Part shown: positions 25,548 through 63,954 of the stretch, in pieces
How positions within the stretch are numbered: position 1 is the stretch's first letter
How the letters are laid out: each line of letters begins with the position of its first letter
From: Minisyncoccota bacterium
GTDB taxonomy: Bacteria; Patescibacteriota; Minisyncoccia; UBA6257; JAGOQP01
Length of the DNA stretch: 64,000 nt
Direction: 5' to 3'
NCBI GenBank assembly: GCA_041661795.1
Contig: JBAZTS010000005.1
Span: 768 to 64,767 of the forward strand
The notes under the pieces: model-generated
What the model was told of the DNA's origin: nothing
What the model saw: only the letters and a program-made list of their open reading frames with translations
Database searches by the model: none
Made by a program: the position numbers and the translations under genes

Positions 25548-26255
25548 ATGGATTCTGTCTCTTTGTTGAGGTTTGATATAAATAAATTAAAAAGCTCTTA
25601 CCGAGCTAAAGTTTCCCAAAGTTTTTTTAAGACAGGTAAAGGACAGTATGGAGAAGGGGATATTTTTATAGGACTGACGGTTCCTCAATGCAGGATGTTA
25701 TCTAAAAAATATCTTGACCTTTCAAAATCTGAAGTTGGAAAAATTCTTAAATCAAAGATACATGAAGAAAGATTAATAGCTCTTTTGATTTTGGTGGAAA
25801 AATTTTCTAAAGGAGATAATAAAAAAAGAAAAGAAATATTTGATTTTTATCTTAAAAATATCAAATATATAAACAATTGGGACTTGGTTGATTTATCGGC
25901 AGATAAAATTGTTGGTGCTTATCTTTTGGACAAAGATAAGAATATTCTTTTAAAACTGGTTTTATCCAAAAATATTTGGGAAAGAAGGATTTCTGTAATA
26001 TCCACTTTTAATTTTATAAAGAATGGCAAATTTGATTGGACTCTTAAAATATCCAAAATTCTTTTAAACGATAGTCACGATTTAATCCAAAAGGCGGTCG
26101 GATGGATGCTAAGGGAAGTGGGTAAAAAATCAATTGCGGTTGAAAAAACTTTTTTAAATAAATATTACCGTAAAATGCCTCGTACCATGTTAAGGTATGC
26201 TATTGAGAGATTTTCAGAAAAGGAGAGGCAAAAATATTTAAAAGGTGTGGTATAA
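25548..26255 (+). CDS. DNA alkylation repair enzyme (AlkD/AlkC-like HEAT-repeat glycosylase family)
   Basis: FFKTGKGQYGEGDIFIGLTVPQCRMLSKKY...NNWDLVDLSADKIVGAYL...KAVGWMLREVGKK matches the DNA_alkylation family. Confidence 0.7.
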   Translation: MDSVSLLRFDINKLKSSYRAKVSQSFFKTGKGQYGEGDIFIGLTVPQCRMLSKKYLDLSKSEVGKILKSKIHEERLIALLILVEKFSKGDNKKRKEIFDFYLKNIKYINNWDLVDLSADKIVGAYLLDKDKNILLKLVLSKNIWERRISVISTFNFIKNGKFDWTLKISKILLNDSHDLIQKAVGWMLREVGKKSIAVEKTFLNKYYRKMPRTMLRYAIERFSEKERQKYLKGVV

Positions 26256-26297
26256 TAAAGTTATTATCCCCGACGCTTTGGTTGGGGCTATAATAAG

Positions 26298-26460
26298 TTT
26301 ACCCCCTCACTCATTGATACAAAGTTAATGAGTTAGTATCCAGACAGAGCCGTAAGGCGACTTTCGTCTCTATCTTATGCTATCACCCAAGGCATTGCTA
26401 CAATAAGTGAGTGGGTGCTCGGTTTTATAATTAATCGCTACGCTCTTAAATAAAAACGGC
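26298..26460 (+). repeat. Structured ~165-bp intergenic repeat element, copy 1: long imperfect hairpin plus a promoter-like tail that abuts the ATG of the downstream gene
   Basis: About 90% identical to 43034..43199. The outer stem ccccctcactcattg...caat(a/g)agtgag(t/g)gggg encloses a GNRA hairpin gcc-gtaa-ggc and is followed by ggtgctcggttttat and ttaattaatcgctacgctcttaaataaaaacggc immediately before the start codon. Confidence 0.8.
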
Positions 26461-26907
26461 ATGAAAATACCACAAAAACTTCCGCAATTTGAAAAAGAAA
26501 AATATTTTGTTATAGTAGCCGGACATCAGGAAGCCGATTTTTACACTGTTTTTGAGGGGAATATTGATAAAAAGGCGTCTTTTAAGTTTGAAAAGCCAAA
26601 ATATTCAGATAAGGAGGGTTTTACCGCCAGGGCTACTCAGGGAAAATCAATTGGTGGAGGTCCGGCTCTAGAGATATCAAAGGAAAAGATAACCCAGGAC
26701 TTTTTGAAAGAATTCAAGAAGATAATAAGAGCATTTTCAAACGATAAGAGTATAAAAAAAGTTGTTATTTTCTCTTCGCCTTATGTTATCAGCCACATAA
26801 AAGACAATCTTCCTGTTGGGCTTAGAGATAAAGTTAAAAAGGTTATTTCTGGAAATTATTCTAAAACCCATCCGTTAAAAATAGTGGAAATGATTTTTGC
26901 CCGCTAG
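26461..26907 (+). CDS. Hypothetical protein
   Basis: 148-aa ORF starting directly after the repeat element. No recognisable family. Confidence 0.45.
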   Translation: MKIPQKLPQFEKEKYFVIVAGHQEADFYTVFEGNIDKKASFKFEKPKYSDKEGFTARATQGKSIGGGPALEISKEKITQDFLKEFKKIIRAFSNDKSIKKVVIFSSPYVISHIKDNLPVGLRDKVKKVISGNYSKTHPLKIVEMIFAR

Positions 26908-26939: not shown

Positions 26940-27200
26940 ATGCCAATAACCTACGTATTGTTTAGTGAGAAAACGAACAGGTTTTATACTGGTTCGTCTC
27001 ATGATGATAATATAGAGATAAGAATGAGGACACATAATTTGGGAGGAGTGAGATCTACTAAATATGGAAGACCATGGAAGTTAGTTGAGGTTGAGAACTT
27101 TAGTAGTTATACTGATGCAAGAAAAAGAGAGTTATTCTTAAAAACTGGTGTTGGGAGGCAGTACATTCATAAAAATTTTGGATATTTGAAAGAGAAATGA
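26940..27200 (+). CDS. GIY-YIG nuclease-domain small protein (UPF0213-like)
   Basis: YVLFSEKTNRFYTGSSHDDNIEIRMRTHNLG...PWKLVEVENF...ARKRELFLK carries GIY-YIG motifs in an ~86-aa protein. Confidence 0.75.
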   Translation: MPITYVLFSEKTNRFYTGSSHDDNIEIRMRTHNLGGVRSTKYGRPWKLVEVENFSSYTDARKRELFLKTGVGRQYIHKNFGYLKEK

Positions 27201-27214
27201 TTCTCGCCTAAAGC

Positions 27215-27301
27215 GGAAGGTTGGCAGAGTGGTCTAACGCGCCGCACTTGAAATGCGGTATCCCGGAAACGGGATCGGAGGTTCGAATCCTCCACCTTCC
27301 G
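27215..27301 (+). tRNA. tRNA-Ser (anticodon UGA)
   Basis: 7-bp acceptor ggaaggt/accttcc, anticodon stem-loop ccgca-cttgaaa-tgcgg (anticodon tga), long variable arm atcccggaaacgggat, T-arm ggagg-ttcgaat-cctcc, discriminator G. Confidence 0.85.
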
Positions 27302-37996: not shown

Positions 37997-38293
37997 ATGG
38001 CCATTTATATACAAGAAGAAAAAGAAGGAGGGAAAAGTTGGTTGAGTTTTGGAGTTATATTTGTGATTTTAGTGATACTTGGAATCGCTTCCTATTATTT
38101 ATTTTTTGTTAAACCGGATTTAATCAGTGGAATAGTAATCCCGGTTAAACTAAAGTCCATAGATGACCTTGCCAAAATGAATTTTAATCCTCAGGACATA
38201 GTTTCCAATCAGTTTTTCAAAATATCCAAACAGTATATTTCTCCTCCGACTCCGATTCCCGGAGGCAACATTTCTCCCTTTGGAGTGTTTTAA
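37997..38293 (+). CDS. Small membrane-anchored protein in the pilus locus, possibly a PilP-like component
   Basis: 98 aa with one TM helix, located between pilO and pilB. No recognisable motifs. Confidence 0.35.
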   Translation: MAIYIQEEKEGGKSWLSFGVIFVILVILGIASYYLFFVKPDLISGIVIPVKLKSIDDLAKMNFNPQDIVSNQFFKISKQYISPPTPIPGGNISPFGVF

Positions 38294-38298
38294 AGTTT

Positions 38299-40041
38299 TT
38301 GTCTATGGAAAATTCAGTTCTTATAAAAAAGTTAATTGATGATGGCTTTTTAAATCAGGAGAACGGTCAGAAGCTTCTTTCAGAAGCTTCTTTGTCCAGG
38401 ATACCGGTAGACGAAATAATCTATGAAAGAAGAGTAGTTTCCGAGGACGTTCTTTTGAAAGCCAAAAGTCAAATTTTATCAATTCCTTCAAAAAAAGTTG
38501 ACCCGGAAAGTATCTCGGATGATTTAATAAAACTTGTTCCTGAGCAAACCGTTAGAAATTTTAAAGTTATTCCTCTTTCTTTGCAGGATGACTTAATGGT
38601 GGTTGGAATGGTCAATCCTGACGATGAAAAAGCTCAAAACGCTATAAAGTTTGTTGCCAAACAAGCAAAAGTTAATCTGGGAATTTATCTAATTTCTTTT
38701 TCTTTATGGGAAACGGTTTTAAGAAAATATTCTCCTTATAAAAGCGAAGTTGAAGCCGCAATAAAATCAATCTATTCGCTTGGTACTAAAAAAACTTCTT
38801 CCGAACAAAGAGCGGTTCAACTTGAAAGCGGAGGAGGGAGTGAAGATGCTCCGATAATAAGAATTGTCGCTTCTACTTTAAAAGAAGCAGTTTGGCAACA
38901 ATCCTCCGATATTCATTTGGAGCCACAAAGAAATAGATTAAGAATTAGATTTAGATTGGACGGACAGTTAAAAGAAGTGGCTTCTATGCCCATAGAACTT
39001 CAACAGGCAATTATTTCTCGTGTTAAGGTTCTTTCTAATTTAAAAATTGATGAAACAAGAATTCCACAAGACGGAAGATTTAGGGCGTTTATTGCCGGAA
39101 GAGATATAGATTTTCGTGTGGCTTCTTTTCCTACTCCCACGGGTGAAAAGATAGCTATCCGCGTTCTTGACCCGCAAATAGGGTTAAAAGGTCTTGAAGA
39201 GCTTGGTTTAATTGAAACAAACTTGGAAATTACCAAAGAGGGAATAAAGGATCCTTATGGGATGATTCTTATTACAGGACCCACTGGTTCTGGTAAAACG
39301 ACCACTCTTTATGCTCTTATGCAGATTCTTAACAATGAATCGGTTAACGTTGTTAGTTTGGAAGATCCGGTTGAATATTATATAGACGGTTTAAATCAAT
39401 CTCAGGTAAGGCCAGAAATTGGATACGACTTTGCTTCTGGGCTCCGACAAATTTTAAGACAGGATCCGGACATTATTATGGTTGGAGAAATAAGAGACAA
39501 CGAAACTGCGGGTCTGGCCATACATGCCGCTTTGACTGGACATATTGTTCTTTCAACTTTGCATACCAATAATGCCGTTGGAGTTATTCCAAGATTGATT
39601 GATATGAAAGTTGATCCGTTTCTTTTGCCCTCTACGGTTAATTTAATGATAGCTCAAAGATTAGTTCCCAAACTTTGTCAAAAATGTTTAACAAAAAAAG
39701 ATCCTCCATCGGAAGTTAAAGCAATTATTGTGGAGGAGATAAAAAAGATGGATGTAGCTATTGTCAAAAGATTTAATATTCCCGAAAATTATACTGTTTT
39801 TGAATCAAAAGGTTGTGACGCTTGCGCTGGGAAAGGAATATCGGGAAGAATGGCTCTTTTTGAGATTTTAAAAATGACCAGAGAACTTGAAGAGGTTATC
39901 AATAAAAGACCAACTGAAGGAGATATTTGGCAGGAGGCCAAAAGACAAAAGATGATAACTCTAAGACAAGATGGAATTATAAAAGCTATAAGGGGATTGG
40001 TTTCAATTGAATCGGTTTTAAGGGAAACAGGAGAACTCTAA
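38299..40041 (+). CDS. pilB: Type IV pilus assembly ATPase PilB (GspE family)
   Basis: N-terminal GspII_E-like domain, Walker A GPTGSGKTTTLYA, Asp/His boxes and the tetracysteine motif CQKC...CDAC. Confidence 0.9.
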   Translation: MSMENSVLIKKLIDDGFLNQENGQKLLSEASLSRIPVDEIIYERRVVSEDVLLKAKSQILSIPSKKVDPESISDDLIKLVPEQTVRNFKVIPLSLQDDLMVVGMVNPDDEKAQNAIKFVAKQAKVNLGIYLISFSLWETVLRKYSPYKSEVEAAIKSIYSLGTKKTSSEQRAVQLESGGGSEDAPIIRIVASTLKEAVWQQSSDIHLEPQRNRLRIRFRLDGQLKEVASMPIELQQAIISRVKVLSNLKIDETRIPQDGRFRAFIAGRDIDFRVASFPTPTGEKIAIRVLDPQIGLKGLEELGLIETNLEITKEGIKDPYGMILITGPTGSGKTTTLYALMQILNNESVNVVSLEDPVEYYIDGLNQSQVRPEIGYDFASGLRQILRQDPDIIMVGEIRDNETAGLAIHAALTGHIVLSTLHTNNAVGVIPRLIDMKVDPFLLPSTVNLMIAQRLVPKLCQKCLTKKDPPSEVKAIIVEEIKKMDVAIVKRFNIPENYTVFESKGCDACAGKGISGRMALFEILKMTRELEEVINKRPTEGDIWQEAKRQKMITLRQDGIIKAIRGLVSIESVLRETGEL

Positions 40042-42482: not shown

Positions 42483-42980
42483 ATGTTTAAAATAAAAAGT
42501 GAAAAAGGTTTTACATTGGTGGAAATGCTCGTGGTTGTCGCGATTATTGCCATTTTAGCGTCCATATTTTTGGTCGGACTCAGAGGTTTTAGAGGAAGTG
42601 CCTATGATTCCAAAAGATTAGCCGACCTTCAAAGATCCCAAAGTTATTTGGAAATTTATTACAGCAAAAACAGATCTTATCCTACTGGAATAACTCAATG
42701 GTCTGGGGCTGGCGGATCTCTTCAGGGAGCTTTGGCTGGGGCTGGAATAGGAGTCACTGCTATACCTAACGACCCTCAATTTGCCGATGTTCCCGCAAAT
42801 AATTACGGTTATAAATCTTGTGATAGCGGCCAAGGATATGTTATTTCCGCTTTTATTTCAGCAAACTCTTCATCTTTCAAAGATGCTCCCGGAGTTGGCG
42901 AAGAAAATTGCGATACGGGTACTGGTTTTACTTGCGCCGATACTTCCGGTGATTTAAAAAGATATTGTACCGGGTCCTAA
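42483..42980 (+). CDS. pilA: Type IV (major) pilin with a class III signal peptide
   Basis: MFKIKSEKG|FTLVEMLVVVAIIAILASI has the canonical G|FTLxE prepilin cleavage/methylation motif. The C-terminal domain has 4 Cys. Confidence 0.8.
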   Translation: MFKIKSEKGFTLVEMLVVVAIIAILASIFLVGLRGFRGSAYDSKRLADLQRSQSYLEIYYSKNRSYPTGITQWSGAGGSLQGALAGAGIGVTAIPNDPQFADVPANNYGYKSCDSGQGYVISAFISANSSSFKDAPGVGEENCDTGTGFTCADTSGDLKRYCTGS

Positions 42981-43033
42981 AGTTTTTATTAATTAATTTA
43001 GAGTGAAACGATACAATTAATTACTATAAAAAA

Positions 43034-43199
43034 TTTACCCCCTCACTCATTGATACAAAGTTAATGAGTTAGTACCCAAGACAGAGCCGTAAGGCGACAT
43101 TCGTCTCTATCTTAGGTTGATACACAGACATTGCTACAATGAGTGAGGGGGTGCTCGGTTTTATTAATTAATCGCTACGCTCTTAAATAAAAACGGCAT
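43034..43199 (+). repeat. Structured ~165-bp intergenic repeat element, copy 2 (perfect outer stem), abutting the ATG of pilD
   Basis: ccccctcactcattg...caatgagtgagggggtgctcggttttat followed by taattaatcgctacgctcttaaataaaaacggcat-ATG. About 90% identical to 26298..26460. Confidence 0.8.
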
Positions 43200-44099
43200 A
43201 TGATAGTTTTAAACAATCTTCAATACCTGTTGCTTTTTCTTTTGGGACTTTCCTTTGGGAGTTTCTTAAATGTCCTTTCTATAAGATATCGTCCTCATCG
43301 TGGTCTTTTTCACTCCGATCATATAGAAGGAAGGTCAAAATGTCTCTCCTGCCAAAAAACTTTAAGCTGGTATGAACTGGTTCCTATTTTCAGCTTTATC
43401 TTTCAAATGGGGAAATGTCGTTCCTGTAGTAAATCTCTTTTGTGGCAATACCCCATAGTAGAGATAATTTCGGCGGCGATATTTGTTATGACTCCCTATT
43501 TTATTAAGAGCTCATTTATTTTTTGGAATTTATCCTGGGGAAATTGGGTGTTTTGGGTGGCATCGGCAATTTGGATACTTGTTCTAATGCTCTTGGTTTT
43601 GGCTTTTATTATAGACCTTAGACATTATGTCATACCTAATTCTGTTAGTGCCTTAATTTTTGTATTGGGAATAATTTGGATAGCATTAGGGAATTGGCAG
43701 GGATTTTTCTCTTCCTCTTTTGATGGTTCTTTTCTTAGAAGTTTTTCTGGAATATTTCCGGTAATTGGAAGTTTTTGGATTTCCAGGTTGGTTGGTCTTT
43801 TGTTTGGTTCAGTTTTCTTTCTTTTGATTATTATTTTATCCAAGGGCAGAGCTATGGGTATGGGGGATGTTAAATTAATGGGAGCAGTTGGGCTTATCTT
43901 TGGGTGGCCAGACATTGTTATTATAGTTGCTCTGTCTTTTATTATAGGTCTTTTTGTCTCCTTGATTTTAATGGCTTTTAAACTCAAAAAAGTATCCGAC
44001 AGAATTCCTTTTGGCCCTCTTATTGTCGTTTCTTCCTTTATTGTCTTCTTTTTTGGCTCTGGATTAATGGGCTTGTATTTTAGTATAATTGGGATGTAG
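43200..44099 (+). CDS. pilD: Prepilin peptidase (A24 family) PilD
   Basis: N-terminal zinc-binding CLSCQK...CRSC tetracysteine, 8 TM helices, and the catalytic GMGDVKLMGAVG. Confidence 0.85.
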   Translation: MIVLNNLQYLLLFLLGLSFGSFLNVLSIRYRPHRGLFHSDHIEGRSKCLSCQKTLSWYELVPIFSFIFQMGKCRSCSKSLLWQYPIVEIISAAIFVMTPYFIKSSFIFWNLSWGNWVFWVASAIWILVLMLLVLAFIIDLRHYVIPNSVSALIFVLGIIWIALGNWQGFFSSSFDGSFLRSFSGIFPVIGSFWISRLVGLLFGSVFFLLIIILSKGRAMGMGDVKLMGAVGLIFGWPDIVIIVALSFIIGLFVSLILMAFKLKKVSDRIPFGPLIVVSSFIVFFFGSGLMGLYFSIIGM

Positions 44100-45307: not shown

Positions 45308-45328
45308 TTTAGCTACGAAATACGAATT

Positions 45329-45925
45329 ATGTACGAATATACTAACAAAACCACAAGATTTCTAAAACGAAACATCCTTTCGTACTTTCGTAAACTTTTC
45401 GTATTTCGTAGACAAAATGGTTCTACATTGATAGAGTTGCTTTTGGCTCTGGGAATATTTTCCATATTTATATCTGTTATTACCGGTGGTTTTATTCAGA
45501 TGCTTTCTAATCAACGTCTTCTTTTAAAATTAATGGCTTCTACCGACAACGTCAGTTTATCTTTGGAGCAAATAGCCAGAGAACTAAGAACCGGTGGTCA
45601 GTTTCAAACAAGTCCCGGAGGAGGAGATCTTATACAGTTTTTTAATGCCGATAAAAAATTTGTTAAATATTATTTGAATATCAACTCGTCAAGAGGACAG
45701 CTTGTAAGATCCGAAAGTTTGGCGGTTGACGATCCTTCGCCTGTTATAAGACCGATAACCGCCGATAACGTTGATGTTTCCCAATTTAACGTTGAGGTGA
45801 TGGATATAAACCCCTCCGGACCTCCAAGAGTTGTTATAAATGTCGGGGTTAGAGTATCAGAAAGAAAAATAAAAGAGGTTAATACGTTTATTCAAACAAC
45901 GGTTAGTCCAAGAAATATAGAGTAA
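45329..45925 (+). CDS. Pilin-like protein with prepilin-type N-terminal cleavage/methylation domain
   Basis: ...RRQNG|STLIELLLALGIFSIFISV has E at +5 and a hydrophobic helix, with an unusually long 29-aa leader. Confidence 0.55.
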   Translation: MYEYTNKTTRFLKRNILSYFRKLFVFRRQNGSTLIELLLALGIFSIFISVITGGFIQMLSNQRLLLKLMASTDNVSLSLEQIARELRTGGQFQTSPGGGDLIQFFNADKKFVKYYLNINSSRGQLVRSESLAVDDPSPVIRPITADNVDVSQFNVEVMDINPSGPPRVVINVGVRVSERKIKEVNTFIQTTVSPRNIE

Positions 45926-45929
45926 TTTT

Positions 45930-46373
45930 ATGAAAATTTGTAAACAAAATAATCAAGGGCAGGCCCGCCTGCCAACGACTGCGCCCGCCCGGCAATCGCC
46001 TGACGGCTCAAGCCGGATGGCGGACGGGCGTAGCAATGGCGGGCAGGCAATTTTAATGGTGGTTATGATTTTGGGAGCCACCATGCTTGGTGTTTCCACT
46101 ATTGCTGGATATATATTTTTGCAAAAGATAAAAACTGCCACTAATGTTATTAAATCCACCGAAGCTATTTTTGCCGCTGATTATGGAGTAGAGTGTTATC
46201 TTTATAAATTTTCCAAGGATAACAGTTATGATTGTTCTGCTTTGCCACCACTTTCCAATGGAACGACGGTTGAGGTTTCTTCTGTCCAAACCGGAGAAAA
46301 TTCCGAGTTGATAAAATCAATAGGGAAATCAGGAAATATTTCCAGAGCTTTTGGTATTTTCATTGGAGAATAA
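45930..46373 (+). CDS. Hypothetical pilin-like membrane-anchored protein. Its 5' region contains a GC-rich insert, and the true start may be the internal Met at 46017.
   Basis: Hydrophobic helix GGQAILMVVMILGATMLGVSTIAGYIFL after a basic leader. The first 30 codons are a GC-rich palindromic segment unlike the rest of the genome. Confidence 0.4.
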   Translation: MKICKQNNQGQARLPTTAPARQSPDGSSRMADGRSNGGQAILMVVMILGATMLGVSTIAGYIFLQKIKTATNVIKSTEAIFAADYGVECYLYKFSKDNSYDCSALPPLSNGTTVEVSSVQTGENSELIKSIGKSGNISRAFGIFIGE

Positions 46374-46380
46374 AATTGGC

Positions 46381-48477
46381 ATGAACAAACAACAAGCCAA
46401 AGAACGTATAGGAAAACTTCGTAAGTTAATTGATTATCATAGGAACCTTTACCATACATTTGATGAGCCGGAAATCAACGATTCTGCTTTTGATACTCTA
46501 AAAAACGAATTGGAGGAGTTGGAATATAAGTTTCCTGATTTAATAACATCTGATTCTCCGACACAGAAGGTCGGAGGAAAGCCATTGGATAAATTTGAAA
46601 AGGTTTCTCATGAAAAGCCAATGCTTTCTTTTAATGACGCTTTTTCGGAAGAAGAAATGAATGAATGGATGGAGCGTTTGGAAAATTATCTCGGTAGACC
46701 GCTGACTGACGCAGACAGTACGCGGACTAACGCAGAAAAAAGTCGGCGTAAGTCAGCGTCAAGTCCGCGCAAGTCTGCATCTCTGTTTTATTGTGAGCTA
46801 AAAATTGACGGGTTAGCAATTGAACTTATTTATGAGAATGGAATATTAAAACAGGGAGCTACTAGGGGCGATGGAATTATCGGGGAAGATATAACTCAAA
46901 ATTTAAAAACAGTTAAAGCTATTCCACAAAGGTTAGAACAATTGGGAAAATATAAAATTCCCAAGCACTTAGTTGTCAGAGGTGAGGTTTTTATAACAAA
47001 AAAAGATTTAGTAAGAATCAATAAAGAACAGCAAAAATTAGGATTGAAATCTTACGCCAACACCAGAAACTTGGCGGCGGGTTCTGTTAGACAGTTAGAC
47101 CCTCAAATTACTGCCTCAAGAAAACTTGATTCCTTCCAATACGATATCGTCACCAATGTCGGACAAAAAACTCACGAGGAAGAGCATAAAATATTGGCTT
47201 CTTGGGGATTTAAAATTAATCTTCATAATAAAAGCGTTACTGATTTAAATAATGTCTTTGAATTTAGAAATTATTGGGAGAAAAAAAGAGAATCTTTGGG
47301 GTATGAAATTGACGGGATTGTGGTTATTGTTAATGACAACAGTTCTTCTGACAAAGCCGGAAGTATAGGCAAAGCTCCCAGAGCCGCCATCGCTTATAAA
47401 TTTTCTCCTCGCCAGGCGACAACTATTATTGAAGATATAAAAGTCCAAGTGGGAAGAACAGGAACTCTGACTCCCGTGGCTATTTTAAAACCCGTTGAAA
47501 TTTCCGGGGTAACTATTACTCACGCCACTTTGCATAATTTTGACGAGATAAAACGACTTGGAGTTAAGATTGATGATACGGTTATTATTACCCGTTCAGG
47601 GGACGTTATCCCAAAAATTATCCAAGTAATAAAAGAACTGCGCACCGGGAAAGAAAAAGAATTTAAAGTTCCTTTAAAATGTCCGGTAGACGGTTCAGGA
47701 GTCATAAAAGATGGCGTGATGATAAAATGTTCAAATCCTTCCTGTGGAGCTAAAAACAGGAATCAAATCATTCATTTTGTTTCCAGAAACGCCTTTGATA
47801 TTAGAGGTCTTGGTAAAAAAATTATTGACAGATTTTTAGATGAGGGCCTCATAACCAACTCCGCCGACATTTTTAGTTTGGAAAAAGGAGACATATCCGT
47901 TTTGGAGAGATTTGGAAAAAAATCGGCTGATAATCTTATAAAAGAAATCAGTCAATCAAAAAAAATCAGAATTGATAAATTTATTTATGCTCTTGGAATT
48001 TTACATGTAGGACAAGAAACCGCATCTCTTCTTTCTAAAAAAATACAATCGTCCGGAAAAAAAGTAAGTATTGTTAATTTAAAAAAGTTTCTTTCTAATA
48101 TTTCTTTGGAAAAGCTTCAGGAATTACAAGACGTTGGCCCAAAGGTTGCTCAAAGTATTTATTCTTGGTTTTCTGATAAAAAGAACCAAAAACTTTTAGA
48201 TGATTTAAATAAATTTGGAATAGAGCTTGAAGTTATTAAAGAAAAAACATCAGGCGTCTTTAAGGGCTTAAATATCTGTCTGACCGGAACTTTAGAATCA
48301 ATGTCTCGCCAAAGGGCTAAGGAAATTATAGAAAGCCGAGGTGGGCATTTTCACTCAGATGTTTTGTCTTCAACTGATATTGTGATTGCTGGAGAAAACC
48401 CGGGTTCTAAGTATAATAAAGCCAAAGACAAGGGGATTGAGGTTTGGGATGAAAAGAAATTTTTAAATAAAATATGA
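46381..48477 (+). CDS. ligA: NAD-dependent DNA ligase LigA
   Basis: Adenylation motif ELKIDGLAI (KxDG), OB fold, Zn-finger Cys (CPVDGSG...C...C), HhH and C-terminal BRCT domains. Start set at MNKQQAKERI. Carries a ~30-aa low-complexity insert before KxDG. Confidence 0.9.
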   Translation: MNKQQAKERIGKLRKLIDYHRNLYHTFDEPEINDSAFDTLKNELEELEYKFPDLITSDSPTQKVGGKPLDKFEKVSHEKPMLSFNDAFSEEEMNEWMERLENYLGRPLTDADSTRTNAEKSRRKSASSPRKSASLFYCELKIDGLAIELIYENGILKQGATRGDGIIGEDITQNLKTVKAIPQRLEQLGKYKIPKHLVVRGEVFITKKDLVRINKEQQKLGLKSYANTRNLAAGSVRQLDPQITASRKLDSFQYDIVTNVGQKTHEEEHKILASWGFKINLHNKSVTDLNNVFEFRNYWEKKRESLGYEIDGIVVIVNDNSSSDKAGSIGKAPRAAIAYKFSPRQATTIIEDIKVQVGRTGTLTPVAILKPVEISGVTITHATLHNFDEIKRLGVKIDDTVIITRSGDVIPKIIQVIKELRTGKEKEFKVPLKCPVDGSGVIKDGVMIKCSNPSCGAKNRNQIIHFVSRNAFDIRGLGKKIIDRFLDEGLITNSADIFSLEKGDISVLERFGKKSADNLIKEISQSKKIRIDKFIYALGILHVGQETASLLSKKIQSSGKKVSIVNLKKFLSNISLEKLQELQDVGPKVAQSIYSWFSDKKNQKLLDDLNKFGIELEVIKEKTSGVFKGLNICLTGTLESMSRQRAKEIIESRGGHFHSDVLSSTDIVIAGENPGSKYNKAKDKGIEVWDEKKFLNKI

Positions 48478-59594: not shown

Positions 59595-59778
59595 TGTAGT
59601 TAGGTAACAAGTTCTCAAAAGGGGTGTCTCGCAAGAGCACCCCTTGAGCTTTTTATATTGTTTTAATTCTCTAAATGTGATTTAATATATAATAGAAACC
59701 AAGAGATTGTCTCTTGGTATAGCACATTAACAAGTCGTGTGATCTGGGTGAGACATCCCCGGAAAGGAGGTGAGAAGA

Positions 59779-63841: not shown

Positions 63842-63901
63842 TCTCATCACCTCCTCTCTGGGGAAAGAATCACCCGACCTCACAACTTGTTAATGTGCTA
63901 T

Positions 63902-63954
63902 ATCCAGAGCCAATCTCTGGATTTCTAAGATTATATTAAATCATATTTTGTCAA
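63902..63954 (-). promoter_or_regulatory. Putative promoter region for the precursor-maturase operon with a perfect 8-bp palindrome in the leader
   Basis: On the minus strand: TTGACA (63949-54), a 13-nt spacer, TATAAT (63930-35), then the inverted repeat atccagag-ccaat-ctctggat (63902..63922) between the -10 and the SD. The short spacer keeps confidence low. Confidence 0.35.

What the first reader, a model, noticed from the sequence alone, without database searches (positions are those of the whole stretch)
26298..26460. A ~165-bp structured intergenic element present twice (26298..26460 and 43034..43199), each copy fused to the start codon of an unrelated gene
The two copies are about 90% identical. 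They share a long outer stem (ccccctcactcattg / caatgagtgaggggg), an internal GNRA-capped hairpin (gcc-GUAA-ggc), a second small hairpin, a terminator-like GGGGGUGCUCGGUUUUAU, and then an AT-rich tail with -35/-10-like hexamers. The tail ends 0-2 nt before the ATG of a hypothetical gene (26461) and of pilD (43200).

It may be a mobile terminator-promoter cassette (MITE-like) that yields leaderless transcripts, or a cis-regulatory or small RNA. The segment ctcattg can pair either locally or with the distal arm, which resembles a switch.
Basis: seen in the sequence. Interest (0 to 1): 0.7.

Follow-up and report, generated by a model that had tools for sequence, protein, structure and literature searches.

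The report
Palindromic repeat filling stop-to-start gene spacers
The two look-alike segments belong to a small, probably mobile family of hairpin-forming repeats in Wolfebacteria-like ultra-small (CPR) bacteria; each copy fills the whole gap between two same-strand genes, from stop codon to start codon, and it is more likely an ERIC- or Correia-type selfish repeat than a riboswitch or a promoter cassette.

Summary
There are two ~90% identical copies and no Rfam match. Each unit is larger than reported (26256-26460 and 42981-43199) and fills the whole spacer from the upstream stop codon to the downstream ATG.

I found homologous copies at seven more loci in at least three Patescibacteria lineages, in front of htrA, mreC, hisS, pilB, ligA, ftsZ and rpsU. 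All have the same orientation relative to the flanking genes, and all end at the ATG. Orthologous junctions without the element have spacers of 2-79 nt, so the element comes and goes.

The unit is three adjacent hairpins:
- a left arm, well supported by compensatory changes;
- a central hairpin with perfect 11-16-bp arms and no conserved sequence, whose interior is inverted between copies;
- a right arm ("tail") carrying the conserved loop AATCGCTWCGCTCTT.

In some copies the left arm is an imperfect inverted copy of the right arm.

Inversion of the interior, loss of the GNRA loop in another copy and the lack of any strand bias argue against a riboswitch or small RNA. No conserved promoter hexamers or canonical terminator were found. 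The window encodes no transposase or invertase.

Best reading: a new MITE/ERIC/Correia-like intergenic repeat, probably co-transcribed with its neighbours. Its function and its means of moving are inferred, not shown.

The parts
26253..26255 (+). Flank: TAA stop codon of the upstream DNA-alkylation-repair gene (25548-26255). Copy A begins at the next base.
26256..26301 (+). Copy A, left-arm hairpin SL1. The stem is TAAAGTTATTAT / ATAATAAGTTTA, capped by the small hairpin CCCCGAC-GCTTTG-GTTGGGG. It contains the TATAAT box.
   Evidence: In one search, 97.6% of cells are paired, 7 of 14 pairs show changes on both sides, and 0 of 500 shuffles reach the observed value.
26302..26415 (+). Copy A, central long hairpin SL2. 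The arms are 26302-26316 and 26401-26415, with two mismatches. The interior includes GCC-GTAA-GGC.
26416..26460 (+). Copy A, right arm (tail) SL3. It reads TGCTC, then the stem GGTTTTAT / ATAAAAAC around the conserved loop AATCGCTACGCTCTT, then GGC directly before the ATG.
26461..26907 (+). Flank: downstream gene, 148 aa. It matches Pfam baeRF_family12 exactly at the gathering cut-off (27.7 bits) and the host-attachment family (PF10116) below its cut-off.
42978..42980 (+). Flank: TAA stop codon of the type IV pilin gene (42483-42980). Copy B begins at the next base.
42981..43037 (+). Copy B, left arm, long form. AGTTTTTATTAATTAATTTAGAGTGAAACGAT...CTATAAAAAATTTA is an imperfect inverted copy of the right arm.
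   Evidence: In one search the local alignment scores 21 against a null of 13.3 +/- 2.6, reached by 9 of 500 shuffles.
43038..43151 (+). Copy B, central long hairpin SL2, with perfect arms at 43038-43052 and 43137-43151.
43152..43199 (+). Copy B, right arm (tail) SL3. It carries one extra T compared with copy A and ends in GGCAT directly before the ATG.
43200..44099 (+). Flank: prepilin peptidase PilD.
38291..38307 (+). Junction before pilB that lacks the element: TAA-AGTTTTTGTCT-ATG. It shares AGTTTTT with the element's left end. The orthologous junction in the Wolfebacteria relative holds a full copy (W1). It may be a remnant or a target; this is unresolved.
46371..46383 (+). Junction before ligA that lacks the element: TAA-AATTGGC-ATG. 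It reads like the element's right end (ATAAAATTGGCATG in L040, TAAAAATGGCATG in W2). The orthologous junction in the relative holds a full copy (W2). It may be a remnant; this is unresolved.

Best explanation
The two window copies are members of a dispersed family of non-coding, nested-palindromic intergenic repeats, 160-225 bp long, in Wolfebacteria-related Patescibacteria (CPR). The family is of the same kind as bacterial MITE-like repeats such as ERIC/IRU, Correia/NEMIS and SPRITE.

Shown:
- A copy consists of three adjacent hairpins: left arm, central hairpin, right arm.
- It occupies the entire spacer between two co-directional genes, from stop codon to start codon, always in the same orientation.
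- It is gained and lost at individual gene junctions.
- The perfect arms of the central hairpin allow its interior to invert. The inverted forms persist, so only the stem, and not the loop sequence or the strand, appears to matter.

Inferred:
- The element is selfish, non-autonomous DNA. It may be moved by a transposase encoded elsewhere that recognises the conserved arm motif AATCGCTWCGCTCTT. That motif is present in inverted orientation in both arms of the long form.
- It sits inside classic operon pairs (mreB-mreC, ftsA-ftsZ, pilin-pilD), so it is probably co-transcribed with its neighbours.
- The hairpins would then act on the mRNA, by partial termination, RNase processing or stabilisation. 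This would uncouple upstream from downstream expression, as described for ERIC and Correia elements.
- The A-rich right end provides the context directly upstream of the downstream start codon.
For: 1. Family and spread. Copies lie before baeRF-like and pilD genes (window); htrA, mreC and hisS (L010, L012, L013); pilB, ligA and ftsZ in Candidatus Wolfebacteria GCA_000994475.1; and rpsU in a third lineage, as a decayed copy. Between the window-like lineage and the Wolfebacteria relative, PilD is only 58% identical and HisS 67%. The tail between the same two lineages is about 83% identical.

2. Presence and absence at orthologous junctions (plus for L038/L040).
- pilin-pilD: 219 nt in the window, against 79, 9 and 2 nt in relatives.
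- pilB: 176 nt in W1, against 11 nt in the window.
- ligA: 158 nt in W2, against 7 nt in the window.
- ftsZ: 158 nt in W3, against 3, 4 and 19 nt elsewhere.

3. Exact junctions. All six complete copies start directly after a TAA stop codon. All nine right ends lie 0-2 nt from the ATG, in the same orientation.

4. Structure. SL1 has 97.6% of cells paired, 7 of 14 pairs with changes on both sides, and 0 of 500 shuffles reaching it. SL3 has 87.5% paired, 3 of 7 pairs compensatory, and 1 of 500 shuffles. SL2 has perfect stems with three unrelated sequences.

5. Inversion. The W1 interior GGCGGCTCCGCCT is the exact reverse complement of the W2 interior AGGCGGAGCCGCC. The window copies are inverted relative to L010, L012 and L013.

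6. The left arm resembles the inverted right arm in B, W1 and W2.

7. Logan contigs break inside the tail, as expected of a multi-copy repeat.

8. Properties of the known analogues are taken from PMC2229807, PMC2649163 and PMC10969869.
Against: - No target-site duplication could be defined, and the terminal inverted repeats are imperfect and absent in the short-left-arm form (A, L012, W3).
- No transposase or recombinase is encoded in the 64-kb window: 58 ORFs were scanned against Pfam. No partner IS was found.
- Copy number per genome is unknown. There are only 2 copies in 64 kb here and 3 in about 42 kb of the relative.
- The strict orientation and the exact abutment to stop and start codons are not typical of random MITE insertion. 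They suggest selection on expression, or a targeted mechanism that I cannot identify.
- Co-transcription and any RNA-level effect are untested.
Confidence: 0.6

Rival explanations
1. Terminator-promoter cassette. The central hairpin stops transcription from the upstream gene. A promoter in the element then restarts transcription of the downstream gene, either as a leaderless mRNA from the tail or as a leadered mRNA from the conserved TATAAW box 6-7 nt upstream of the central hairpin.
For: - The host genome has almost no Shine-Dalgarno sequences, and many genes carry TATAAT 5-9 nt before the ATG, so promoter-to-ATG spacing would be fixed.
- The tail is always fused to the ATG.
- A TATAAT or TATAAA box is present in all six complete copies, 7 nt before the central hairpin (6 nt in L012).
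- In the decayed L040 copy the tail survives while the rest is lost.
- Correia elements are known to create promoters at their ends (PMC2649163).
Against: - The consensus scans find no shared promoter-like site, and no terminator at the central hairpin.
- The hexamer at the -10 position of the tail is not conserved and lacks the final T in most copies: TAAATA, TGAACA, TAGGTA, TAAACA.
- The TATAAW box is one strand of the SL1 stem and changes together with its pairing partner, so the structure alone can explain its conservation.
- The U-run follows the central stem only after 7 nt.
- The elements sit inside operon-type gene pairs (mreB-mreC, ftsA-ftsZ) that need no new promoter.
Confidence: 0.2
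2. A cis-regulatory RNA (riboswitch, thermosensor or protein-binding leader) or an independent small RNA, in which the long hairpin and its alternative local pairing act as a switch.
For: - The element folds stably.
- It lies upstream of several unrelated genes.
- SL1 and SL3 show compensatory changes.
- One G-U pair in W2 is tolerated only on the sense strand.
Against: - There is no Rfam match at gathering thresholds or at E<=10.
- The hairpin interior is inverted between copies, which would turn the RNA into its complement.
- The interior is replaced by unrelated sequence in other lineages.
- The GNRA loop is not conserved.
- The sense strand folds better in 3 of 6 copies and the antisense strand in the other 3.
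- The genes served share no pathway.
Confidence: 0.07
3. An invertible DNA switch (an 'inverton'). A site-specific invertase would flip the segment between the 16-bp inverted repeats to turn the downstream genes on or off, acting on many loci, as Mpi does in Bacteroides.
For: - Perfect inverted repeats flank an 85-nt segment directly upstream of genes.
- Both orientations occur among family members, and the repeats are shared by several loci.
Against: - Orientation at a given locus is identical in every assembly that spans it: W1 in four and W2 in at least twelve strains or samples.
- No recombinase is encoded in the 64-kb window.
- No promoter was detected in the interior.
- In the relative the inverted segment is only 13 nt, too small to carry a promoter.
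- Spontaneous inversion of hairpin loops between perfect arms is a known mutational process in plastid DNA (my own knowledge).
Confidence: 0.04
4. The two copies are the direct-repeat ends (attL/attR) of a 16.7-kb integrated element, or the tail encodes a small protein on the minus strand (MPFLFKSVAI...).
For: - Two direct repeats lie 16,736 bp apart, with a tRNA gene and a GIY-YIG ORF between them.
- A minus-strand mini-ORF beginning MPFL is recognisable in several copies.
Against: - The region between the copies is the conserved type IV pilus cluster plus housekeeping genes. It is syntenic in relatives and contains no integrase.
- Copies occur singly at many other loci.
- The mini-ORF is 11 aa in B and 30 aa in A, and its frame is not kept after codon 13 (W1 versus W2).
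- By my hand count on the alignment, variable sites fall 4:4:6 over the three codon positions.
- The mini-ORF has no room for a promoter.
Confidence: 0.02

Closest known systems
ERIC / IRU (enterobacterial repetitive intergenic consensus)
   Same: Both are imperfect palindromes of ~130-220 bp. Both lie in transcribed intergenic regions between genes of an operon. Both are conserved in sequence across genera while their locations differ between species. Both come in size variants and have variable copy number. ERIC's effect on neighbouring mRNA depends on orientation and on ribosomes approaching the element (PMC2229807, PMC10969869).
   Different: There is no sequence relationship, and the host is a different phylum (CPR). 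ERIC has TA at its termini and a TA target duplication; this element has none that I can recognise. ERIC occurs in both orientations, whereas all nine copies here share one orientation. ERIC does not fill the spacer exactly from stop to start codon.
Correia / NEMIS / CREE elements of Neisseria
   Same: Both are 100-155-bp non-autonomous elements with inverted-repeat ends. Both are inserted next to genes, are co-transcribed and form long hairpins. Correia elements can supply promoters at their ends and are RNase III targets. Both show presence/absence differences between strains (PMC2649163).
   Different: Correia elements have 24-26-bp terminal inverted repeats and a TA duplication, and some have an IHF site. 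This element has three tandem hairpins and only imperfect long arms. No promoter is demonstrated here, and copy number appears far lower.
SPRITE / BOX / RUP of Streptococcus pneumoniae, and CIR of Caulobacter
   Same: All are small, structured intergenic repeats. SPRITE looks like a Rho-independent terminator. CIR has 5' and 3' sections that independently form stem-loops, like SL1 and SL3 here (PMC2229807, PMC10969869).
   Different: The sequences are unrelated. The central hairpin here lacks an adjacent U-tract. The fixed stop-to-start placement has not been reported for those families in the papers I read.
Putative mobile promoters (Matus-Garcia et al., Promoter propagation in prokaryotes, PMC3488235)
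   Same: Both involve highly similar upstream regions in front of non-homologous genes within and between genomes.
   Different: That category is defined by position and similarity only. Promoter activity is neither shown nor predicted here, and the conserved unit also includes the region directly downstream of the preceding gene.
REP / REPIN elements mobilised by RAYT transposases
   Same: Both are hairpin-forming extragenic palindromes that persist in compact genomes (PMC3116915).
   Different: REPs are ~20-40 nt with a conserved GTAG foot and occur as inverted doublets in many copies. No RAYT gene was seen here, and the architecture and size differ.

Membership tests
Bacterial MITE-like repeats (generic) | Small (<~300 bp) and non-coding | tested here: met
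   Units are 158-219 bp. The only ORFs are an inconsistent 11-30-aa minus-strand ORF and short chance ORFs.
Bacterial MITE-like repeats (generic) | Several dispersed copies next to unrelated genes, with presence/absence at orthologous sites | tested here: met
   Nine loci in at least three lineages. Orthologous junctions without the element have 2-79-nt spacers. Copy number per genome is not known.
Bacterial MITE-like repeats (generic) | Terminal inverted repeats | tested here: inconclusive
   The left arm resembles the inverted right arm in B, W1 and W2 (1-12 of 500 shuffles reach the score) but not in A or W3. GTTTTTAT is shared at both ends.
Bacterial MITE-like repeats (generic) | Target-site duplication | tested here: not met
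   Comparison of junctions with and without the element shows no consistent duplication. Only copy B could be read as flanked by TA.
Bacterial MITE-like repeats (generic) | A related autonomous IS or transposase with the same ends | tested here: not met
   No transposase or recombinase among 58 window ORFs. No similarity in the plasmid or phage collections. Whole genomes could not be searched.
Any Rfam family (riboswitch, cis-regulatory element, sRNA) | Match to a curated covariance model | tested here: not met
   Nothing at gathering score in the window or in L012, L019 and L037. Only chance-level hits at E 6-10.
Structured functional RNA (generic) | Structure conserved on one strand, with conserved loops | tested here: not met
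   The central hairpin interior is inverted or replaced between copies, the GNRA loop is lost in L012, and neither strand is consistently more stable. SL1 and SL3 do covary, but A-U/G-C exchanges do not identify the strand.
Intrinsic terminator | G+C-rich stem followed immediately by a U-run | tested here: not met
   The scan finds none at the central hairpin in either copy. On the sense strand the U-run starts 7 nt after the stem.
Sigma-70 promoter in the tail (leaderless start) | -35 and -10 hexamers at the right spacing, conserved among copies | tested here: not met
   The scans report no shared site. The hexamer at the -10 position varies and mostly lacks the final T. Activity cannot be tested here.
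Inverton (phase-variable invertible promoter) | Both orientations at one locus within a population, plus an invertase | tested here: not met
   Orientation at W1 and at W2 is the same in every assembly that spans the locus (4 and at least 12). No recombinase is encoded in the window. Read-level data cannot be tested with these tools.
Putative mobile promoter (PMP) | Homologous upstream region in front of non-homologous genes | tested here: met
   Nine different downstream genes.
Putative mobile promoter (PMP) | Promoter function | not testable with these tools
   This needs mapping of transcript 5' ends or reporter assays.

The most novel reading that the evidence does not exclude
The element may be adapted to a compact genome that lacks Shine-Dalgarno sequences and depends on translational coupling. 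Nearly every base of the insert lies in one of three abutting hairpins. In the long form the two ends also pair with each other: 5'-GUUUUUAU directly after the UAA, with AUAAAAAC 3 nt before the AUG. The folded mRNA would then bring the upstream stop codon and the downstream start codon back together. A terminating ribosome could melt the outer helix and reinitiate, as if the 160-220-nt insert were absent. This would explain three features: the exact stop-to-start occupancy, the single orientation, and the conserved A-rich right end. It would be a self-neutralising intercistronic mobile element.
Probability: 0.15. Interest if true: 0.75.

Novelty: new member of a known kind. Interest (0 to 1): 0.45.

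Why it matters
CPR/Patescibacteria genomes are tiny and tightly packed, and I found no description of MITE-like repeats in them: one full-text search gave a single, unrelated paper. This family shows that selfish palindromic DNA can persist even there.

It persists by occupying whole intercistronic spacers inside essential operons (mreB-mreC, ftsA-ftsZ, pilin-pilD). That makes the family a natural probe of how these organisms, which appear largely leaderless and free of Shine-Dalgarno sequences, start translation of downstream cistrons.

There are also practical consequences. The repeats break metagenome assemblies, and they can mislead searches for riboswitches or small RNAs.

Tried and rejected
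- Rfam at gathering and permissive thresholds gave nothing.
- The genome-contig scan with the inverted-repeat pattern gave only a chance hit inside a coding region.
- Three viral-contig scans gave only chance matches or nothing.
- Plasmid and phage BLAST found no match.
- L011, from the metagenome scan, is a chance 26-nt match in coding sequence.
- The minus-strand mini-ORF (MPFLFKS...) is rejected. Its length and frame are inconsistent between copies, and there is no codon-position bias.
- The attL/attR reading of the two direct repeats is rejected, because the interval is the conserved pilus cluster and copies occur singly elsewhere.
- The idea that orientation is uniform within a genome was dropped. 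W1 and W2 in one genome are inverted relative to each other. The Ga0172379 copies probably come from the same or a very close population as the window, because an identical HisS and an identical PilD both occur in the single sample SRR6484324.
- Outer-helix pairing of the two ends as a universal feature is not supported. It is absent in L012, weak in W3, and in A the compensatory change supports the local SL1 hairpin instead.
- The triplet after CTCT in the tail is always TAA, TGA or TAG, but it is in no consistent frame, so I judge it chance.
- The 55-nt inverted repeat at 59.7/63.9 kb is not a partner transposon. It encloses peptidase and radical-SAM genes.

Full report
**1. The observation**

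The two segments are real. Window 26250-26480 and 42986-43219 align at 88% identity overall. The repeat finder splits them into collinear blocks of 92-97% identity, 16,736-16,737 bp apart. The 30-nt right end occurs exactly twice, against zero expected.

The 15-nt arm CCCCCTCACTCATTG occurs four times, as two arms per copy. It is perfect in copy B and has two mismatches in the right arm of copy A. Both copies fold better than shuffled controls. The minus strand of copy B folds best, at -66.3 kcal/mol with z = -8.3.

Rfam gives only three tRNAs in the window. Around copy A it gives nothing better than E = 6.

**2. The host**

PilD homologues are named Candidatus Wolfebacteria or Paceibacterota, so the host is a CPR/Patescibacteria bacterium. 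The window has 36% G+C.

Upstream regions of about 60 genes show almost no Shine-Dalgarno sequences. Many have TATAAT 5-9 nt before the ATG, which suggests widespread leaderless mRNAs.

Pfam scans of 58 window ORFs found housekeeping, glycosyltransferase and type IV pilus genes. They found no transposase, integrase or invertase.

**3. More copies**

One metagenome scan with a 20-mer from the left arm returned three real copies from sample Ga0172379:
- L010, before an HtrA-like protease;
- L012, between mreB and mreC, on the minus strand;
- L013, before hisS.

L011 is a chance match in coding sequence.

A profile of the tail then found three copies in Candidatus Wolfebacteria GCA_000994475.1 and in many related groundwater assemblies. 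W1 lies before pilB, W2 before ligA and W3 before ftsZ. A decayed copy lies before rpsU in a third lineage, L040.

Between the window-like lineage and the Wolfebacteria relative, PilD is 58% and HisS 67% identical, yet the tail is about 83% identical. That is far more than neutral intergenic DNA should retain.

Logan contigs carrying the window's pilD, and the hisS of L013, start inside the tail. This is the signature of a repeat that breaks assemblies.

**4. True extent and anatomy**

Comparing the complete copies shows that the unit begins directly after the upstream gene's TAA and ends at the downstream ATG. In the window, copy A is 26256-26460 and copy B is 42981-43199.

The unit has three parts.

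(i) Left-arm hairpin SL1.
- The stem is AAGTTTTTAT / ATAAAAAGTTT. The cap is either a small G+C hairpin (A, L012, W3) or a longer segment (B, W1, W2).
- 97.6% of cells are paired, 7 of 14 pairs change on both sides, and 0 of 500 shuffles reach this.

(ii) Central hairpin SL2.
- It is flanked by ...TTTA and TGCTC...
- Its arms are perfect but unrelated in sequence: CCCCCTCACTCATTG in the window lineage, CCCCGTTAGAT in W1/W2 and CCGAGCACATAAAT in W3.
- Total length is 35-117 nt. The Wolfebacteria copies carry an extra G+C-rich hairpin after it.

- The stem is GGTTTTAT / ATAAAAAC around the near-invariant loop AATCGCTWCGCTCTT, followed by GGC-ATG.
- 87.5% of cells are paired, 3 of 7 pairs are compensatory, and 1 of 500 shuffles reaches this.

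In B, W1 and W2 the left arm is an imperfect inverted copy of the right arm, including the motif TAAGAGC-GAAGCGA. The whole unit is therefore a nested palindrome.

**5. Mobility**

Orthologous junctions differ by presence or absence of the element (plus for L038/L040):

| Junction | With element | Without element |
|---|---|---|
| pilin-pilD | 219 nt (window) | 79, 9, 2 nt (three relatives) |
| pilB | 176 nt (W1) | 11 nt (window) |
| ligA | 158 nt (W2) | 7 nt (window) |
| ftsA-ftsZ | 158 nt (W3) | 3, 4, 19 nt (others) |

The start codons are orthologous; for example, pilB begins MEN... in all four genomes.

I could not define a target-site duplication.

Two window junctions that lack the element resemble the element's ends. 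One is TAA-AGTTTTTGTCT-ATG before pilB. The other is TAA-AATTGGC-ATG before ligA, whose last 13 nt are identical to the right end in L040. They may be remnants of lost copies or reflect a target preference.

**6. Inversion of the central hairpin**

Relative to the arms and to the downstream gene, the interior of SL2 is reverse-complemented in L010, L012 and L013 compared with the two window copies. It is also reverse-complemented in W1 compared with W2 within one genome: GGCGGCTCCGCCT against AGGCGGAGCCGCC.

At a given locus the orientation is the same in every assembly that spans it, four for W1 and at least twelve for W2. These therefore look like occasional evolutionary flips between perfect inverted arms, not active phase variation.

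The flips have three consequences:
- sense and antisense folds are each the more stable in three of six copies;
- only the stem, not the interior sequence, can be under selection.

This argues strongly against a riboswitch, a switch or a specific small RNA.

**7. Promoter and terminator readings**

The consensus scans find no shared promoter-like site in either copy, and no terminator at the central hairpin.

The hexamer at the -10 position of the tail is TAAATA, TGAACA, TAGGTA or TAAACA. The conserved TATAAW box 6-7 nt upstream of SL2 forms one strand of the SL1 stem and covaries with its partner.

A promoter cannot be excluded, and Correia elements do create promoters (PMC2649163). It is not what the conservation pattern points to.

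**8. Most likely mechanism**

All nine copies lie between co-directional genes, in one orientation, and several sit inside classic operon pairs. I therefore infer that the element is co-transcribed. I also infer that its hairpins act on the mRNA, through attenuation, RNase processing or stabilisation. This is documented for ERIC in Yersinia and for Correia in Neisseria (PMC2229807, PMC10969869, PMC2649163).

The conserved arm motif, present in inverted orientation in both arms of the long form, is the best candidate for a recognition site of whatever enzyme moves the element. These steps are inference.

A more novel reading is that the abutting hairpins, and in B, W1 and W2 the pairing of the two ends, bring the stop and start codons together so that translational coupling survives the insertion. 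It is compatible with the data, but the ends do not pair in all copies.

**9. Verdict**

The element is a previously undescribed member of the known class of MITE/ERIC/Correia-like palindromic intergenic repeats.

Its unusual features are the host (CPR bacteria), the exact stop-to-start occupancy, the single orientation and the invertible central hairpin. Function, copy number and means of transposition remain open.

Noticed in passing
window, all gene starts (for example 17795, 19805, 49807, 57794): Almost no gene has a Shine-Dalgarno sequence. Many have TATAAT or a close variant 5-9 nt upstream of the ATG, which suggests that leaderless mRNAs are common in this CPR genome.
   Followed up: partly
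window 59693-59747 and 63873-63927: A 55-nt inverted repeat (84% complementary), with arms 4.1 kb apart. It encloses an M16-peptidase-like ORF, a 239-aa ORF with no Pfam match and a radical-SAM ORF on the minus strand. It lies downstream of an ABC transporter. No transposase was found. This may be a peptide-maturation cassette.
   Followed up: partly
window 45308-45416; L015 2940-2990: An inverted repeat rich in TACGAA motifs overlaps the start of a pilin-like gene (45329). A similar GTACGAAAGTACGAAAATG...TTTTCGTATTT sits in the pilin-pilD spacer of the Wolfebacteria relative. It may be a shared operator of pilus genes.
   Followed up: partly
window 38291-38307 and 46371-46383: The element-free junctions before pilB (TAA-AGTTTTTGTCT-ATG) and ligA (TAA-AATTGGC-ATG) resemble the element's left and right ends. 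The relative carries full copies at exactly these two junctions. They may be remnants of lost copies or reflect a target preference.
   Followed up: partly
window 26940-27301: An 86-aa stand-alone GIY-YIG nuclease ORF lies directly upstream of a long-variable-arm tRNA gene (27215-27301), two genes downstream of copy A. A similar small GIY-YIG ORF occurs in L032 (17762-18034).
   Followed up: no
L034 4627-5999 (Logan SRR6484324): A reverse transcriptase (RVT_1) gene next to a bAvd-like gene, with a second bAvd/23S_rRNA_IVP gene at 1418-1789. This is a diversity-generating-retroelement-like cassette, on the contig that carries the hisS copy of the element.
   Followed up: no
L019 19319-19597; L037 56-266; L021 19579-20016: Group I introns: one inside the 23S rRNA gene of the Wolfebacteria relative, with a LAGLIDADG ORF in a sister strain, and another at the start of L037.
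   Followed up: no
L037 14744-14790 (W3): The central hairpin of W3 (CCGAGCAC...GTGCTCCGG) is followed by GTGCTCC again. Its arm looks like an inverted or tandem duplication of the conserved TGCTC flank. This hints that these hairpins can arise by template switching at this position.
   Followed up: no
tails of all copies (alignment A4, columns 33-35): The triplet after the conserved CTCT is TAA, TGA or TAG in seven of the eight copies aligned in A4 (the decayed L040 copy reads CAA). It is not in a consistent frame with either flanking gene and is probably chance.
   Followed up: yes
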